This document shows, one piece after another, positions 36,001 to 42,000 of a stretch of 55,744 bases of DNA (position 1 is the stretch's first letter; every line of letters starts with the position of its first letter). Made by a program: the position numbers. The stretch is from positions 1 through 55,744 of the forward strand of contig DLMY01000007.1 in assembly GCA_002478275.1 (NCBI GenBank), in the 5' to 3' direction. The stretch is from Actinobacteria bacterium UBA7524. GTDB lineage: Bacteria > Actinomycetota > Coriobacteriia > Anaerosomatales > UBA912.

Positions 36001-39000
36001 GGCAAAGGGACCCTGGTTCGGGCACTGCTCGACAGGGTCCCGGACATCTGTCTGTCCATCTCTGCGACTACGCGCCCACCCCGACCGGGCGAGGTCGAAG
36101 GGGTCCACTACTTCTTCTTGAGCCCGGAGGAATTCTCACGGCTCATCGATGAAGACGGCCTTCTGGAGTGGGCGGAGGTGCACGGTAACAGGTACGGTAC
36201 CCCGAAAGAGGTCGTCGAGGCTCGTTTGTCCGAGGGCAGACACGTGGTGCTGGAGATCGACCCGCAGGGGGCTCAGCAGGTCAAGCGGGTCATGCCGGAA
36301 GCCGTCCTGATCTTCGTCCAGGCTCCTTCGTTGGGGGAGCTGAAGCGGCGCCTGACCAGCAGAGGTAGTGAGACGAGCGAGCAGATCGAAGGGCGGATGC
36401 GCACCGCCATGAGAGAGATGGAACTTGCGGGTACATACGACTTCGTGGTAACAAATGACGATGTCACGCGCGCCACGGACGAATTGGCGCGGATCATCGA
36501 TTCCTACTCTGACCGGAGCTGACAGGCCCGGTCGTGCCGAAATGTGAGGAAGATACAACATGGTCATCAAGCCAGAGGTCGATTTGCTGCTGTCCAAGGT
36601 CGATTCCAAGTACACGCTGTGCATCGTGTCTGCACGGCGTGCACGTCAGATCAACGACATGGTGCATGGTGTGCGTGATCAGGCCGTCCTGACGATGGCG
36701 CCCTCGCAGATCGCCGCGCTGACGAGCACCAAGCCGCTGACCCTCGCCATGGAGGAGATTGCCACCGGCGACGTCTCCTACGAGCGGGTTCAGGACAGCT
36801 ACAAGTAGCCCCCGCGCGATGTTCGAGCGCGCGGCACTCATCCACTATCACGAGATCGGCCTCAAGGGCCGAAACCGCTCCAGTTTCGAGAAGCGCCTTC
36901 GAGACAATCTGGCGCTTGCGTTGCTCGCGGTAGACGGGATCCGTGCCGAACGTATCTCCAGCCGTCTGCTGGTGCGCACTCCGGACTCTGCCGTACTCGA
37001 AGAGGTGGTCTCGCGGGTCTCCGTCATCCCGGGGGTGTCGAGCGTATCCCCCTGCTGGATCACGTCGAGGGAGCTCTCCGAGATGTGCAAGGCTTCCTCC
37101 CTGGCCATCGCCGACTCGGGAGAGTATCGGACGTTCGCGGTCGAAGCGCGCAGATCGAACACTGACCATCCTATGAACAGCATGGAGATGAACCGGGCGA
37201 TCGGACGACATCTCGTCGATGAGACCGCGAAGCGCGTCGACCTCTCGAATCCTGACGTGACAGTCAGGGTCGAGGTCGTCCAGGGAGATGCATACATCTA
37301 CAGCCGGAAGCTGCCCGGACCGGGAGGATTGCCGGTCGGGACCGGAGGGAAGGTCGTGGCACTGCTTTCGGCCGGTATCGACTCTCCTGTGGCGACTTGG
37401 CGGCTGGCGAAGAGGGGAGCGGTGCCGGTCGGCATCCACTTCTCCGGCAGGCCGCAGGTCTCCGCGAGTTCGGAGCGCCTGGTCGCTGAGATAGGCTCCG
37501 TGCTAGAGCGCCGTGGCGCCATCGCAAGGATCTACATAGTCCCCTTCGGCGACCTGCAGAAGGAGATATCCCTGCACGCCCCGCCGGACCTTCGCGTGTT
37601 GCTTTACCGGCGTCTCATGGTCCGCGTCGCCGAGGAGTTGGCGAGGATCGAGGGCGCGAAGGCGCTCGTCACGGGCGAATCACTCGGACAGGTCGCATCA
37701 CAGACATTGGAGAACATGGTGGTGGTCGATGACGCCGCGACCATGCCGATCCTGCGACCGCTCGTCGGCTCGGACAAGGTCGAGATCATCGCCGAGGCGC
37801 GCAATCTCGCCACGTTCGACCTCTCCACGCAGGAGCACGATGACTGCTGCACGCTGTTCATGCCTCGCACACCGGCGACACACGCCACGGTCGAGGAGAT
37901 CCATCAGGCCGAGGAGAGCCTGGACATGCGTCGGATGACCGGCGAAGCACTTGAGTCCATGACTTACCTGGAGTACCGGTGCCCTTCGTACAAGGCTCCC
38001 CGTACGTTGCCTGCCAGCGTCACTGCGGTCGCGGAACCAGCTGGACCTGTTGACGCTACCACGGCCGCCTCGGGTCGATGACGGCTGCCAGACTCAGGAT
38101 CCTTGCTGTGGAGCCCTACTACGGGGGCTCTCATCGTGCCGTCCTCGACGGGCTGGCCGAAAGGTACGATGCCGACTGGACGCTACTCACGTTGCCTGCG
38201 CGCAAGTGGAAGTGGCGCATGCGCGGGGCCGCCATCGCGTTCTCCCGGCGCCTGCGCGAAGAACTGTCTTCGAGCGAACATGATTCGGGCGGCACCGGGA
38301 GACCCCTGTACGACCTCGTGTTCGCTTCTAGCTTCGTGAACCTGGCAGAACTCTACGGCATGGCCGGACCCGCGCTGAGCGGTGTACCCTCGATCGTCTA
38401 CTTCCACGAGAACCAACTCGTCTATCCCAATCGCCACACCGCAGAGTGGGACTACCAGTTCCCGCTCACGAACATCACAAGTGCGCTCTGCGCGGACGTG
38501 TGCGCGTTCAACACCGAGTGGAATATGCGCACCTTCCTGGAGGAGATCCCCGCCTTCATCGCCGCGTTCCCTGACCACCGCCCGCAGGGCGTGGCGGAGG
38601 CGATCGCCGCGAAGTCGGTCGTCGTGCCTCCGCCCTTCGACCCGGTACCCTTCGATGAGGTCGTCACAGCTTCATCACCCGGTGAGGGATCTCAGCGACG
38701 AGTCCGTATCGTGTGGCCACACCGCTGGGAGCATGACAAGGATCCCGAAGGGTTCTTCGAGGCGCTCAAGGTCCTGGTCGCAACGGGTCTTGAGTTCGAG
38801 GTGGTCATAGCCGGTCAGGCCTTCGCCGAGACGCGCGACGCGGTGCTGGAGCGTGCGGCGTTCCTCGGCGATAGGCTGGTTCATGCAGGGGAGCCGGAGT
38901 CGAGGGACGAGTACGCCCGGCTCCTGTGCTCGTCGGACATCGCCGTCTCCACCGCCATCAACGAGTTCTTCGGGCTGGCGATGATCGAGGCGTGCTACGC

Positions 39001-42000
39001 GGGATGTACTCCCGTGGTGCCCGACAGGCTCGCGTACACCGACATCTATCCTGACCGGTTCCGCTATACAGGCATGGACGGACTCGTCGGCATGCTGCAG
39101 TCGCTCATCGGGCGACCGCCACCGCGCGGAGCGGCCCGCCGGTTGGCAGAAGGCTACAGCTTCGAGTGTCTCCTCGGCAGGTATGGGGAGTTGTTCGAGA
39201 AGACGGCCGCCGGCCGCTAACAGCCCGCGAGCCGGCTCGCGACGCCGTCGAGCTCGATGTGGTCGGCTTCGACCAGACTCACCGCGCCGAAGACCTCTTT
39301 GACGCGTTCGTTGGTGGCGCGGCCCATGGCATCGGCGTAGAACTTCGAGGCACGTTGCTCGCGAGCGACGGACTCCTCGATGTTCGCGCACCAGTCGTCG
39401 GATGCTTCGCCGGGAGTCGTCAGGTCCTCGGGTTCGGGTACCCCGGCGAGCTTGCAGAACAGCTCGCAGTGCTCCGCTTCGACCTTCGCGAGCCGCTTGT
39501 ATGTGCTCGAGAGCTTCATGTCGTCCTTGTGGGCGGCCATAGCGAAGTAGAAACGCGCATTGGAAAGCTCGAGCTCGATCGCTTCGAGCAGGTCGTTGCG
39601 CTCGATCTCCGTGATGTCGACCTGGTTGATGTCCTCGGGGTACTCGGTGGTGTCCACGATCGCCTCTCGATGGGCCCCACAGAACGGGCAGTGGCTCGGC
39701 GCCTCTGAGCCCAGGTAGGTCTCGCCGCAGATGCGGCACCGGTACATCTTCACGTGCGTCCTCCTTGTTCCGTCGGCTGAGCGTCCAGTGAGTCGGCTAT
39801 GGCTTCCCCGAAAGCCCGGGCAGCATCAGGGCCGCTGGCGGTGATGATCGAACCGTCGATCTCGACATCCGCGCCCGTCCAGATCGCACCATGGATCTCA
39901 AGGTCCTCGCGCTGGCTCGGAAAGCTGGTGACCCGGATGCCGTCGAGCAGCCCGGCGTGTGCAAGTGTGGAAGGAGCGATACAGATCGCCGCGACGACCC
40001 TTCCGTCCTCGTGCAATGTACGGGCGATGTTGTGGGCGAGAGGGTCATCGAAGAACGTGGCCGCCCCTGCTCCTCCGATGAAAACGACGGCATCGTATCC
40101 CGATGCGACCGCGTCTTCCAGGGCGATGTCCGCCTCGACCTCGAGCCCGAAGCGACCGACCGCCGGCCCAGCCTCTTCGCTTGCGGTCACGACCTCGAAT
40201 CCGCGAGTCTCGAGCACATCCCGGGGGTGTGCGTACTCCTCGTCCCTGAAGATCCTCTGAGCGATCACGAACAGTACGGTTCCCATCGATACCTCCACGT
40301 TCAGGCCGTATGCAAGAGATGATACCCACTGCTTCAGCTCACCGACGGCGAGAGGTCTCTGGTATCATGTGCACAAGTTTGTACACATCGACGGTGTCGC
40401 CGGGGTCTTTCGGGCAGATGGCCCGGGACCCGGCGGGGGCACGACTGACCAGAGGGGCGGCACGAGATGGATACGGTCGAGCGTCAGGGGTCGTTGGTTG
40501 ACGGGGTCAGTGAACGGGTCGCGGGCTTCCTGGACCGTCGGGACATGCTGATCGCCGCGGACCGCTACTTCTACCTGCAGGCGATCGCCGGGCCCACGAA
40601 CAACCGTGTCCGGACAGCCGACGGCAGGGACCTGGTGATGCTTGCCTCCTACAGTTATCTGGGGCTTATCGGGCATCCCCGGATCGATGAAGCGGCCAAA
40701 GCGGCGATCGACGAGTACGGGACCGGTGCAGGCGGCGTGCGGTTGTTGACGGGCACGATGGACCTTCACGAACGGCTGGAGGAGCGTATCGCTCGGTTCA
40801 CGGGTCGTGAGGACGCCTGTGTTTACTCGAGCGGCTACGTCACCAATGTCGCGATCATCACCGGGTTGACCGGCCCGGGAGACCTGATCCTCATGGACAA
40901 GCTCGATCATGCGAGCATCGTGGACGGCGCACTGTTGTCCGGAGCCAAGTGGAAGACGTACCGGCACAACGACATGGACCACCTCGAGCGGCTGCTTGCC
41001 GATGCCTCGGGACGCTACGGTACGGTACTCGTGGTCGCTGACTCGGTCTTCTCGATGGACGGGGATGTGATGGATCTTCCGCGCACCTCCGAGCTGTGCC
41101 GCAAGCACGGTGCGCGCCTCATGGTCGATGAAGCCCACTCGGTAGGCTCCCTTGGGGCCACAGGGCATGGCATCGAGGAGCACTTCGACATGCCCGGCTC
41201 GATCGACTTCAAGATGGGGACGCTGTCCAAGTCCATCCCGTCGGTCGGGGGGTATCTTGCCGCGAACAGGGACATCGTGGACTATCAGCGTCACATGTCG
41301 CGGCCGTTCATCTTCTCGGCCGCGCTGCCCCCCGCACAGACCGCCGCGGCACTGGCGGCGTTCGATGTCATCGAAGACGAGCCCTGGCGTGTTCGGGACC
41401 TGCATCGCATCACCGAGACGTATGCGGCCGGCCTCAAGAACCAGGGATGGGACACGATGGATTCGACCACGTGCGTAGTGCCGGTCCTTGTCGGTGACGA
41501 GGCGATGACGATGGACCTCACCCGGATGCTGTTCGACAGGGGAGTCTTCGTCTGCCCGATCGTCCATCCGGCCGTGCCGCGCGGGATGGACCGTCTGCGC
41601 ACGTGCCTCATGGCCACGCACACCGACGAGGACATCGCCCTCGTACTTGATGCCTTCGAGGAGTCGGGCAAGGCGCTGGGACTGATCTGACGCTATACTT
41701 CAGAGACGTCGCGCTTGAGCGGCTGCGATGCCACAGCAGTATGCAAAGGAGACCCGTATGAGAGCCGGCACCGCCCTGTCATCGCACGCCGATATGGTGC
41801 GTGGCGGAGTTGCGGCTGTCGTGCTCGGGGATTCCGTCGCGTTCGCGGTGTTGCGGGCGACGGCCGGCGAACAGCCCGGCGGCGTCGCGGTCCAGATCCT
41901 GTATCTGTTACCGATGGCGCTGACCGTCGCGCTCGCACTCATGTGCATGAAGGTGTCGCAGGGCCAGGAGAGGCGTTTCTGGGCGATGCTGTCGTTGGCG

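What a model noticed while it worked through the whole genome (the two positions that open the first line are those of the whole stretch)
38078..39220. Full-length orthologue of the animal tRNA-queuosine mannosyltransferase QTMAN, coupled to thiI
g00541 (380 aa) is a whole-length orthologue of QTMAN/GTDC1, the enzyme that makes mannosyl-queuosine on animal tRNA-Asp, a modification described so far for animals. Its start overlaps the stop of thiI (tRNA 4-thiouridine synthase) by 4 nt, so the two tRNA enzymes are probably co-translated. I predict that this bacterium, and most of its order, carries a glycosylated queuosine in tRNA.
Evidence so far: Swiss-Prot: mouse, fly, zebrafish and human QTMAN 32-35% identical over 391-440 aligned residues, E 3e-69 to 1e-65; it is one of only 3 genes whose five best Swiss-Prot matches are all eukaryotic. 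Pfam QTMAN_N E 1e-59, model 1-167 of 168, plus Glycos_transf_1. Family in at least 114 of 145 genomes of the order, 2.5% of Actinomycetota, 3.6% of Bacteria; next to thiI in at least 78 of 145 genomes of the order. The substrate should exist: TGT found in 39 of 40 sampled genomes of the order that are 90% complete or more; QueT and a QueD-type gene here.
(Added by a program. Inside this text positions count along the whole contig: contig position 1 is position 1 of the stretch shown here. "Call 12" and the like, gene names such as g00115 and contig names such as C1 are that model's own, and its searches are not shown. The text may have been shortened before it was handed on; [...] marks where a part breaks off. 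The agent that wrote the report below was given it as the finding of a first reader that could run no searches.)

Follow-up and report, generated by a model that had tools for sequence, protein, structure and literature searches.

The report
Bacterial relative of animal queuosine mannosyltransferase
This bacterium carries an intact, full-length relative of the animal enzyme that puts a mannose on the queuosine base of tRNA, fused into an operon with another tRNA-modifying enzyme, which suggests, but does not prove, that sugar-decorated queuosine also exists in bacteria.

Summary
ORF 38078-39220 (+, 380 aa) has a full-length QTMAN_N domain plus a GT-B C-terminal domain. Its ATG overlaps the thiI stop by 4 nt.

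It folds confidently as a retaining GT-B glycosyltransferase. It shares the invariant motifs of both domains with animal QTMANs. In a 78-row tree its clade is sister to the animal-containing clade, with rough support of 95/82.

The gene is in 134 of 146 genomes of its order. Of those 134, 130 also have TGT. QueA and QueH are in at least 95% of good genomes, so the queuosine acceptor exists in the order.

In a phylum sample, all 15 other carriers have TGT, against 57% of non-carriers. That contrast is confounded by clade.

The tight thiI linkage is real but confined to this order. Elsewhere, 59 metagenome and 11 genome loci show no conserved partner and no que genes.

The window's own 83%-complete assembly lacks tgt, queA and queH. 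It also lacks the adjoining yajC-secDF, yet keeps QueT and ManC.

Best reading, at about 0.55: a tRNA queuosine-34 hexosyltransferase. The sugar, the tRNA and the activity itself are untested. Databases already name such proteins by homology. I found no paper on bacterial glycosyl-queuosine.

The parts
38078..39220 (+). QTMAN-family GT-B glycosyltransferase, 380 aa
   Evidence: ORF. Pfam QTMAN_N at 9.4e-59 plus Glycos_transf_1. AlphaFold2 model with pLDDT 91.0 and pTM 0.90. Foldseek best matches are retaining GT-B enzymes.
38096..38635 (+). QTMAN_N domain, residues 7-186. By analogy with other GT-B enzymes this is the acceptor-binding half.
   Evidence: The acceptor role of the N-domain is general GT-B knowledge (recalled), not tested here.
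38204..38224 (+). Basic motif K43-W-K-W-R-M-R49. W46 is invariant; W44, R47 and R49 are at least 90% conserved in 24 bacterial and animal sequences.
   Evidence: with the sequence.
38399..38416 (+). Motif Y108-F-H-E-N-Q113. H110, E111 and Q113 are invariant.
38720..38740 (+). Motif H215-R-W-E-H-D-K221. R216, W217, D220 and K221 are invariant. It probably contacts the nucleotide-sugar diphosphate (inference).
38963..38989 (+). E-X7-E motif of retaining GT4-type enzymes, E296...E304 (NEFFGLAMIE).
   Evidence: That EX7E marks GT4 enzymes is recalled.
38078..38081 (+). ATGA: the glycosyltransferase start overlaps the thiI stop.
   Evidence: The same 4-nt overlap occurs in 27 of 66 measured loci of the order.
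36819..38081 (+). thiI, tRNA 4-thiouridine synthase, short form without a rhodanese domain. The ORF opens at TTG 36759, but ATG 36819 is the likely start, 11 nt after the rpoZ stop.
36560..36808 (+). rpoZ, RNA polymerase omega subunit.
   Evidence: RNA_pol_Rpb6, 8.9e-14.
35860..36522 (+). gmk, guanylate kinase. It heads the same-strand string gmk-rpoZ-thiI-glycosyltransferase.
   Evidence: gmk lies upstream in 69 of 80 loci.
35515..35544 (+). The only sigma-70-like promoter match in 35500-39800. No terminator-like site was found in that stretch.
   Evidence: a consensus match only; 0.6 expected by chance.

Best explanation
The gene encodes a soluble, retaining GT-B glycosyltransferase of the same family as animal QTMAN (GTDC1).

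Proposed mechanism: it takes a nucleotide-hexose, GDP-mannose by analogy, and transfers the sugar to a hydroxyl of the cyclopentenediol ring of queuosine (or epoxyqueuosine). The acceptor sits at position 34 of a GUN-anticodon tRNA, tRNA-Asp by analogy.

In this order the gene is the last of a housekeeping string, gmk-rpoZ-thiI-glycosyltransferase. It is translationally coupled to thiI, so two tRNA-modifying enzymes would be made together.

Shown: the gene, its domains, its fold, the shared motifs, its tree position, its distribution and the coupling.

Inferred: the acceptor (queuosine in tRNA), the donor sugar, and which tRNA is modified.
For: 1. Family and fold. QTMAN_N is full length at E 9.4e-59, with a GT1 domain behind it. 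The model has pLDDT 91 and best matches retaining GT-B enzymes such as glycogen synthase, MshA, PimA and BshA.

2. Shared residues. 24 columns are invariant across 24 sequences: the window protein, 7 rows from the animal-containing clade (5 of them named animal proteins) and 16 bacterial representatives. Seven lie in the N-domain (H19, W46, H110, E111, Q113, Y116, N145) and 17 in the C-domain. The presumed acceptor half is therefore about as constrained as the donor half.

3. Tree. The window's clade is sister to a 23-row clade. The five looked-up members that carry an organism name are all animals. Support is UFBoot 95 / SH-aLRT 82 in the careful LG+G4 tree of 78 rows. The same topology appears.

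4. The substrate exists in the order. TGT is in 97 of 98 good genomes, QueA in 57 of 60 and QueH in 58 of 60. Of 134 carriers, 130 have TGT.

5. Phylum sample. All 15 carriers other than this genome have TGT, against 220 of 385 non-carriers. QueA is in 10 of 10 carriers tested outside the order.

6. This genome keeps QueT, a queuosine-precursor transporter (114.5 bits). It also keeps ManC for GDP-mannose (448.7 bits against a cut-off of 372.95).

7. Context is that of a lone housekeeping gene. No polysaccharide cluster surrounds it. No phage or plasmid copy was found.

8. None of the 14 model genomes has the family. A bacterial glycosyl-queuosine would therefore have escaped classical tRNA chemistry.
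Against: 1. There is no assay, and no structure of any QTMAN in the PDB copy. The acceptor is inferred from homology at 36-42% identity.

2. No que or tgt gene lies beside the family anywhere. This holds for 80 loci of the order (queH-queA-tgt sits about 130-160 kb away in four long-contig genomes), for 11 other actinobacterial loci, and for 189 flanking ORFs of 59 metagenome loci.

3. The TGT co-occurrence is confounded by descent. The carriers sit in 9 families outside the order, and TGT is near-uniform within nearly all tallied families of the sample, present or absent.

4. The gene is dispensable where queuosine is kept. Ten TGT-positive genomes of the order lack it, including 3 of the 4 other genomes of this family. 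None of 29 sampled genomes of the three other same-class families has it.

5. The window's own assembly has no tgt, queA or queH, not even at E <= 1. The usual neighbours of queA and queH lie mid-contig on C33 without them.

6. tRNA-Asp is not in this assembly.
Confidence: 0.55

Rival explanations
1. The bacterial family uses the same fold and donor chemistry on a different acceptor: a small molecule, a protein or lipid, free queuine or a precursor, or another RNA nucleoside. On this view animal QTMAN took up queuosine-tRNA only after it entered eukaryotes.
For: The nearest solved folds act on small molecules or lipids: MshA, BshA, PimA and GlgM. No que or tgt neighbour occurs in any of the 150 loci examined. 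The gene is often lost while queuosine is kept. Some homologues give weak matches to 'GT4 in conflict systems' at E about 1e-8. JGI names them 'glycosyltransferase involved in cell wall biosynthesis'.
Against: N-domain motifs are invariant between animals and distant bacteria, which argues for one acceptor type. The window's clade is the sister of the animal-containing clade. Every one of the 15 other carriers in the phylum sample has TGT, and 10 of 10 tested have QueA. The gene is never embedded in thiol-cofactor, lipid or polysaccharide operons. Recurrent neighbours, where any exist, are RNA or translation genes: thiI in this order, RluA-type pseudouridine synthase in L124, L138 and L144, and SmpB in L168 and L175.
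Confidence: 0.3
2. In this particular genome the queuosine pathway has really been lost. The glycosyltransferase is then a relic, or has been put to another use.
For: No tgt, queA or queH is found at E <= 1, and no QueC or QueF either. On contig C33 the genes that flank queA in a same-family genome end at a tRNA-Leu and a sensor phosphatase gene. The genes that flank queH in two same-family genomes lie 3.5-7 kb further on, with no queH between them.
Against: The block missing with tgt and queA also holds yajC, secD and secF. Losing these housekeeping genes is less likely than an assembly gap in an 83%-complete genome of 60 contigs. QueT is retained. The glycosyltransferase ORF is intact with every invariant residue. 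Only 27 tRNA genes were assembled.
Confidence: 0.1
3. It is an ordinary cell-envelope or polysaccharide glycosyltransferase, as the generic annotation says.
For: A generic GT1 domain is present, and JGI applies that name.
Against: No signal peptide or membrane segment is apparent in the model, which is a compact two-Rossmann fold. No neighbouring polysaccharide genes occur in this window or in most loci; the exceptions are a Glycos_transf_4 gene in L136 and a DegT gene in L175. Motif conservation across phyla and animals is extreme, unlike envelope enzymes whose acceptors vary.
Confidence: 0.05

Closest known systems
Animal QTMAN (GTDC1), tRNA-queuosine alpha-mannosyltransferase. I could not read the primary paper, Zhao et al., Cell 2023. 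I know it from passages in PMC11755703 and PMC12518689 and from recall.
   Same: Same Pfam architecture, QTMAN_N plus Glycos_transf_1. 24 invariant columns are shared, including YFHENQ, HRWEHDK and EX7E. Identity is 38-42% per domain. Its clade is sister to the animal-containing clade.
   Different: It is bacterial. It lacks the roughly 100-residue linker insertion of animal proteins. It is encoded in an operon with thiI. Activity, sugar and target tRNA are untested. Here queuosine is made on the tRNA by TGT, QueA and QueH from a salvaged precursor, not inserted as queuine.
GluQRS (YadB), which glutamylates queuosine-34 of tRNA-Asp in E. coli (recalled).
   Same: It would be a bacterial enzyme that further decorates the queuosine ring of a tRNA.
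   Different: It belongs to an unrelated family, a GluRS paralogue. No GluQRS scores above the curated cut-off in 61 genomes of the order; the matches there are ordinary GluRS.
QTGAL (B3GNTL1), the animal queuosine galactosyltransferase (passages in PMC11755703 and PMC12518689).
   Same: It glycosylates queuosine-34 in tRNA.
   Different: It is a different protein family, a different sugar, a different hydroxyl and a different tRNA (Tyr). I did not search for it here.
Retaining GT-B (GT4/GT5-type) enzymes: PimA, MshA, BshA, GlgM and archaeal glycogen synthase.
   Same: Same fold, with Foldseek E 7e-15 to 1e-10 and TM 0.6-0.7. The EX7E motif is present. PimA is the only PDB match by sequence (E 5e-4).
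   Different: Only 10-19% identity. Their N-domains are not QTMAN_N, and their acceptors are lipids, small molecules or glucans.

Membership tests
QTMAN / GTDC1 family (Pfam PF12038 plus GT1) | Full-length QTMAN_N domain | tested here: met
   E 9.4e-59, model positions 1-167 of 168, 198 bits against a cut-off of 25.
QTMAN / GTDC1 family (Pfam PF12038 plus GT1) | C-terminal GT-B nucleotide-sugar domain with EX7E | tested here: met
   Glycos_transf_1 at 2.7e-9. E296-X7-E304 is present. The model has a GT-B fold with pLDDT 91.
QTMAN / GTDC1 family (Pfam PF12038 plus GT1) | Residues invariant in animal QTMANs are kept | tested here: met
   24 invariant and 27 near-invariant columns in 24 sequences, which include 5 named animal proteins. 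Which of these residues matter for catalysis or tRNA binding is not known to me.
QTMAN / GTDC1 family (Pfam PF12038 plus GT1) | Groups with characterised animal enzymes rather than with another GT family | tested here: met
   Sister to the animal-containing clade at 95/82, with a bootstrap that had not settled. SH-aLRT is 80 under C20 and FastTree local support is 0.41. The rows were the best hits to the window protein, so sampling is biased.
QTMAN / GTDC1 family (Pfam PF12038 plus GT1) | Linker insertion between the two domains, as in animal proteins | tested here: not met
   Absent from all bacterial rows. I do not know that it is required for function, and one rotifer protein (P0024, 363 aa) also lacks it.
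tRNA-queuosine mannosyltransferase (the activity) | The organism has queuosine-34 tRNA | tested here: inconclusive
   For the order the answer is yes: TGT 97 of 98, QueA 57 of 60, QueH 58 of 60. This genome has none of the three, but it keeps QueT and is 83% complete.
tRNA-queuosine mannosyltransferase (the activity) | A donor can be made (GDP-mannose) | tested here: met
   ManC/PMI at 448.7 bits against a cut-off of 372.95, at G000 C23:44415-45869. This shows availability only, not use.
tRNA-queuosine mannosyltransferase (the activity) | Transfers alpha-mannose to the allylic hydroxyl of queuosine-34 in tRNA-Asp | not testable with these tools
   Needs biochemistry or mass spectrometry.
Envelope or polysaccharide GT4 glycosyltransferases | Lies in a gene cluster with other glycan synthesis or export genes | tested here: not met
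   Window neighbours are gmk, rpoZ, thiI, rubrerythrin and DJ-1. The 11 genome loci and 59 metagenome loci are heterogeneous.

The most novel reading that the evidence does not exclude
Sugar-decorated queuosine is not an animal invention. On this reading, Anaerosomatales and the other bacterial carriers of this family (890 clusters at 50% identity with E <= 1e-30) make hexosyl-queuosine in their own tRNA, in this order co-expressed with ThiI. The animal enzyme would descend from a bacterial gene close to this clade. Animals would then owe bacteria both the queuine base and the enzyme that glycosylates it. In bacteria the sugar might shield the anticodon loop from cleavage, as a 2026 preprint abstract reports for human tRNA-Asp.
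Probability: 0.4. Interest if true: 0.75.

Novelty: new member of a known kind. Interest (0 to 1): 0.55.

Why it matters
Mannosyl- and galactosyl-queuosine are described in the papers I could read as animal modifications. If bacterial members of the QTMAN family act on queuosine, three things would follow.

- A new bacterial tRNA nucleoside would exist in a few percent of bacteria. Standard model organisms would have missed it, because none of the 14 control genomes has the gene.
- The origin of the animal enzyme would become traceable to bacteria.
- A small, soluble, single-domain-pair bacterial enzyme would be available for the structural work on tRNA recognition that has no entry in the PDB copy searched.

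The test is cheap: nucleoside mass spectrometry on a cultured carrier, or expression in E. coli.

If the acceptor is not queuosine, the family is a widespread, strongly conserved glycosyltransferase with an unknown, probably universal substrate. That would also be worth knowing.

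Tried and rejected
Tools and papers that gave nothing:
- The Cell 2023 paper could not be read by DOI or PubMed id. It and its supplements may already mention bacterial homologues.
- Literature searches: 'QTMAN' found 14 papers and 'GTDC1' with 'queuosine' found 5. 'DUF3524' found 0. 'mannosyl-queuosine' with 'bacterial homolog' found 3, none relevant by title. 'glycosylated queuosine' with 'bacteria' found 45, of which I read the 20 listed titles and abstract starts. 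A four-term search found 0.
- Term searches inside three papers found no mention of bacterial homologues.
- No NCBIfam model fits the protein; the best is 22 bits against a cut-off of 400.
- A PDB sequence search found only PimA, at E 5e-4.
- No phage or plasmid copy was found.

Neighbourhood analysis found no conserved partner outside the order. One 219-aa radical-SAM ORF in L120 could be QueE-like, but it is separated from the gene by an IS110 transposase. I did not pursue it.

The careful tree under the C20 mixture model did not finish in three runs. I report the finished LG+G4 tree instead. No AU test was run.

My first ORF picks in high-GC loci chose wrong strands. I replaced them with an all-ORF comparison.

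No ThiI-glycosyltransferase complex prediction was sent, because I do not claim that the two proteins bind.

I could not reach genomes of other phyla with the whole-genome search. The TGT co-occurrence test therefore covers Actinomycetota only.

Full report
**The observation**

The window holds an ORF at 38078-39220 on the + strand (380 aa, ATG start). It lies directly behind an ORF that ends at 38081. The sequence reads ...GTCG ATG A CG..., so the ATG of the second gene and the TGA of the first share three bases and the two genes overlap by 4 nt.

Pfam matches:
- QTMAN_N over residues 7-186: E 9.4e-59, model positions 1-167 of 168.
- Glycos_transf_1 over residues 211-321: E 2.7e-9.
- No NCBIfam model fits the protein; the best is 22 bits against a cut-off of 400.

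The upstream gene is ThiI. It has the ferredoxin-like, THUMP and PP-loop domains, and scores 350.9 bits on TIGR00342 against a cut-off of 264.5. Its ORF opens at TTG 36759 inside rpoZ. The in-frame ATG at 36819, 11 nt after the rpoZ stop, is the likelier start.

The local string is pyrD, pyrF, a phosphoribosyltransferase, gmk, rpoZ, thiI and the glycosyltransferase, all on the + strand. It is followed by convergent rubrerythrin and DJ-1 genes. Between 35500 and 39800 there is one promoter-like match, in front of gmk, and no terminator-like site. These are weak consensus scans.

**What the protein is**

An AlphaFold2 model built on a 24-row alignment is confident (mean pLDDT 91.0, pTM 0.90) and shows two Rossmann-like halves. 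Foldseek against the PDB returns retaining GT-B enzymes:
- archaeal glycogen synthase (E 7e-15, TM 0.70)
- MshA, GlgM, PimA and BshA

No QTMAN structure is in that library. By sequence the only PDB match is PimA at E 5e-4.

I aligned the window protein with 7 rows from the animal-containing clade and 16 bacterial representatives. Five of the 7 are named animal proteins. The alignment has 24 invariant columns.

| Half | Invariant residues |
|---|---|
| N-domain (7) | H19, W46, H110, E111, Q113, Y116, N145 |
| C-domain (17) | include R216, W217, D220, K221 and E304 |

- The N-domain residues lie in the motifs KWKWRMR, YFHENQLxYP and FNS.
- E304 is the second E of the EX7E motif E296...E304.
- Against a fish protein that UniRef names QTMAN, identity is 38% over 190 N-terminal residues and 42% over 143 C-terminal residues. 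About 108 extra residues sit in the fish linker.
- All bacterial rows lack that insertion.

**How big the family is, and where this copy sits in it**

A search of 1.84 billion representatives found 3220 relatives. Of these, 890 clusters at 50% identity have E <= 1e-30.

Named members among those I looked up:
- Animals: Polypterus, Erpetoichthys, Elysia, Macrostomum, Trichuris and a rotifer.
- Bacteria: Actinomycetota, Sedimentisphaerales and Krumholzibacteria.

NCBI already calls some close relatives 'tRNA-queuosine alpha-mannosyltransferase domain-containing protein' or 'DUF3524 domain-containing protein'. JGI calls them cell-wall glycosyltransferases. Automatic Atlas names say the same.

I built trees from the best hits. 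A 23-row clade is always monophyletic (99-100), and its five named members are all animals. The window's clade (window, P0001, P0009) is always its sister.

| Tree | Support for the sister relation |
|---|---|
| FastTree, 143 representatives plus the window | 0.41 |
| LG+C20 PMSF, quick | SH-aLRT 80 |
| LG+G4, careful, 78 rows | UFBoot 95 / SH-aLRT 82 |

Caveats:
- The bootstrap of the careful tree had not settled (correlation 0.808).
- The C20 careful run never finished.
- The rows were chosen as best hits of the window protein. Bacterial lineages nearer to animals but further from this protein could be missing.
- Several basal members of the '23-row' clade are unnamed environmental proteins that may not be eukaryotic.
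- Letter make-up differs among rows.

**Distribution and the substrate question**

Record titles of relatives read Coriobacteriia or Anaerosomatales.

| Gene | Order, all genomes | Order, good genomes |
|---|---|---|
| QTMAN family | 134 of 146 | 92 of 98 |
| TGT | 140 of 146 | 97 of 98 |
| QueA | not run | 57 of 60 |
| QueH | not run | 58 of 60 |
| QueG, above cut-off | 0 of 61 | not applicable |

- queH, queA and tgt lie within about 6 kb of each other, for example at G017 C1:909955-915132.
- Of the 134 carriers, 130 have TGT.
- The four that do not are 83%, 65%, 91% and 78% complete.
- The 91%-complete one has queH 750 nt from a contig end.
- Ten TGT-positive genomes lack the family. They include three of the four other genomes of the window's own family.

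In an even sample of 401 Actinomycetota that are at least 90% complete:
- 16 carry the family. Eleven of them lie outside the order, in nine families.
- None of the 29 sampled genomes of the three other same-class families carries it.
- All 15 carriers other than this genome have TGT, against 220 of 385 non-carriers.
- QueA is present in 10 of the 10 outside-order carriers I tested.

This fits a queuosine acceptor. It is weaker than the numbers look, because TGT is near-uniform within nearly all tallied families of the sample, present or absent, so few independent contrasts exist.

No canonical GluQRS is present in 61 genomes of the order.

**The window's own genome**

The assembly is 82.94% complete in 60 contigs. 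It has no match to the TGT, QueA, QueH, QueC or QueF families.

I took QueA, TGT, YajC, SecD, SecF and QueH from a same-family genome and ran tblastn against the assembly. Nothing matched, even at E <= 1.

The synteny comparison cuts both ways.
- In that relative the order is ABC transporter, two bPH genes, queA, a sigma factor, tgt, yajC, secD, secF.
- In this genome the first three genes are on contig C33 (17.4-23.0 kb, up to 87% identical).
- C33 then continues with a tRNA-Leu, a MASE3-SpoIIE sensor phosphatase gene and other genes, not a contig end.
- Genes that flank queH in two relatives also lie on C33, at 26.5-29.9 kb, without queH. They are a B12 radical-SAM gene (57% identity) and a PHP gene (81% identity).

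So the que genes are not where synteny predicts them. On the other side:
- The missing block includes the housekeeping yajC-secDF genes.
- Only 27 tRNA genes were assembled; Tyr-GTA and Asn-GTT are present, Asp and His are not.
- A QueT precursor transporter is retained (114.5 bits).

I read this as rearrangement plus an assembly gap (about 0.9) rather than loss (about 0.1). It is not settled. ManC is present, so GDP-mannose can be made.

**The thiI linkage**

Among 80 species loci of the order (54-71% identical proteins), thiI lies upstream on the same strand in 70, gmk in 69 and pyrF in 66.

Spacing between the thiI stop and the glycosyltransferase start, for the 66 of those 70 loci that could be measured:

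| Spacing | Loci |
|---|---|
| -4 nt | 27 |
| -1 nt | 7 |
| -17 to -8 nt | 4 |
| +1 to +10 nt | 17 |
| 31-70 nt | 2 |
| more than 150 nt | 7 |
| artefact values | 2 |

- Translational coupling is therefore conserved across an order of 25 families.
- It sits inside a larger conserved housekeeping string, so shared descent explains much of it.
- In five loci gmk is followed by the glycosyltransferase with no thiI match (L049, L051, L058-L060).

Outside the order the linkage vanishes.
- Eleven other actinobacterial loci have unrelated neighbours.
- I scanned 189 flanking ORFs from 59 metagenome loci. These came from 60 of the 80 loci: the 20 shortest were left out, and one further locus duplicated another.
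- None of the 189 hits the ThiI, TGT, QueA or QueH families at E <= 1e-6.
- What recurs is scattered and partly RNA-related:
  - an RluA-type pseudouridine synthase directly downstream in L124, L138 and L144, which belong to one marine clade
  - SmpB in L168 and L175
  - EF-G in L127
  - ThiF-rhodanese in L142
  - NUDIX in L129 and L136
  - a sugar nucleotidyltransferase in L156
- There are no polysaccharide clusters, and no phage or plasmid copies.

This is the pattern of a lone housekeeping enzyme, as most tRNA-modification genes are. That last remark is general knowledge, not a test.

**Mechanism and odds**

The best-supported reading (0.55) is a retaining hexosyltransferase acting on queuosine-34, or epoxyqueuosine-34, of tRNA, made together with ThiI.
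- Donor and target tRNA are carried over from the animal enzyme. They deserve less confidence than the acceptor class.
- The main rival (0.3) is the same chemistry on another acceptor.
- A relic in a genome that has lost queuosine (0.1) and an envelope glycosyltransferase (0.05) are minor rivals.

**Comparison with what is known, and novelty**

- In the papers I could read, manQ and galQ are presented as animal modifications made by QTMAN and QTGAL (passages of PMC11755703 and PMC12518689).
- None of my searches found a statement on bacterial homologues or bacterial glycosyl-queuosine.
- The primary Cell paper and its supplements were not available and may contain one.
- Pfam, NCBI and UniRef already attach the QTMAN name to bacterial proteins, so the homology itself is not new.

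What this work adds:
- near-universal presence in one order, alongside a complete TGT/QueA/QueH route
- the conserved coupling to thiI
- the sister position to the animal-containing clade
- the absence of the family from all 14 model genomes

I file it as a new member of a known kind, with a directly testable prediction.

Noticed in passing
G000 contig C33:17463-29902 (locus L179), compared with L178, L180 and L181: There is a synteny break exactly where relatives carry queA-sigma-tgt-yajC-secD-secF. This genome has a tRNA-Leu and a MASE3-PAS-GAF-SpoIIE sensor phosphatase gene there instead. The usual queH neighbours lie 3.5-7 kb further on, without queH. The whole block, secDF included, is missing from the assembly.
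   Followed up: partly
window 36759-36819: The thiI ORF as listed starts at TTG 36759 and overlaps rpoZ by 50 nt. The in-frame ATG at 36819 is the likelier start, giving a 420-aa ThiI of the short type without a rhodanese domain.
   Followed up: partly
window 39217-40298 (- strand): A rubrerythrin with an N-terminal rubredoxin-like domain ('reverse' order of domains) and a DJ-1/PfpI gene lie convergent to the glycosyltransferase. The rubrerythrin stop abuts the glycosyltransferase stop. The pair is found in 50 and 49 of 80 loci of the order, at varying distance.
   Followed up: no
window 41728-43962 (+): A 744-aa GGDEF plus HD-GYP-type (HD_5) protein, probably involved in c-di-GMP turnover. 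It has relatives in 20 of 80 loci.
   Followed up: no
G143, G144, G145 (same family as the window's genome): These genomes are 99%, 88% and 96% complete. They lack the QTMAN family but keep TGT; G143 and G145 also have QueA and QueH (G144 was not in those samples). This looks like a recent loss within the family, and gives natural 'knock-outs' for comparison.
   Followed up: partly
L124, L138, L144 (also L121, L137); metagenome loci: In one marine clade the homologue sits between an alpha/beta-hydrolase plus HAD pair and an RluA-type pseudouridine synthase. That is a second, independent pairing with an RNA-modifying enzyme.
   Followed up: no
G192, G303, G370: These carriers outside the order have a second, divergent QueA-like gene (E 1e-61 to 1e-69) in addition to the canonical one.
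   Followed up: no
P0125 (970 aa), P0065 (612 aa), P0035 (562 aa): These are much longer forms within the animal-containing clade. They may be fusions or gene-model artefacts.
   Followed up: no
L120:544-1203: A 219-aa radical-SAM/Fer4_12 ORF (QueE-like or NrdG-like) lies 2.3 kb upstream of a homologue, with an IS110 transposase between them.
   Followed up: no
window 51456-51532: tRNA-Pro (GGG) is the only tRNA in the window. The whole assembly has just 27 tRNA genes.
   Followed up: yes
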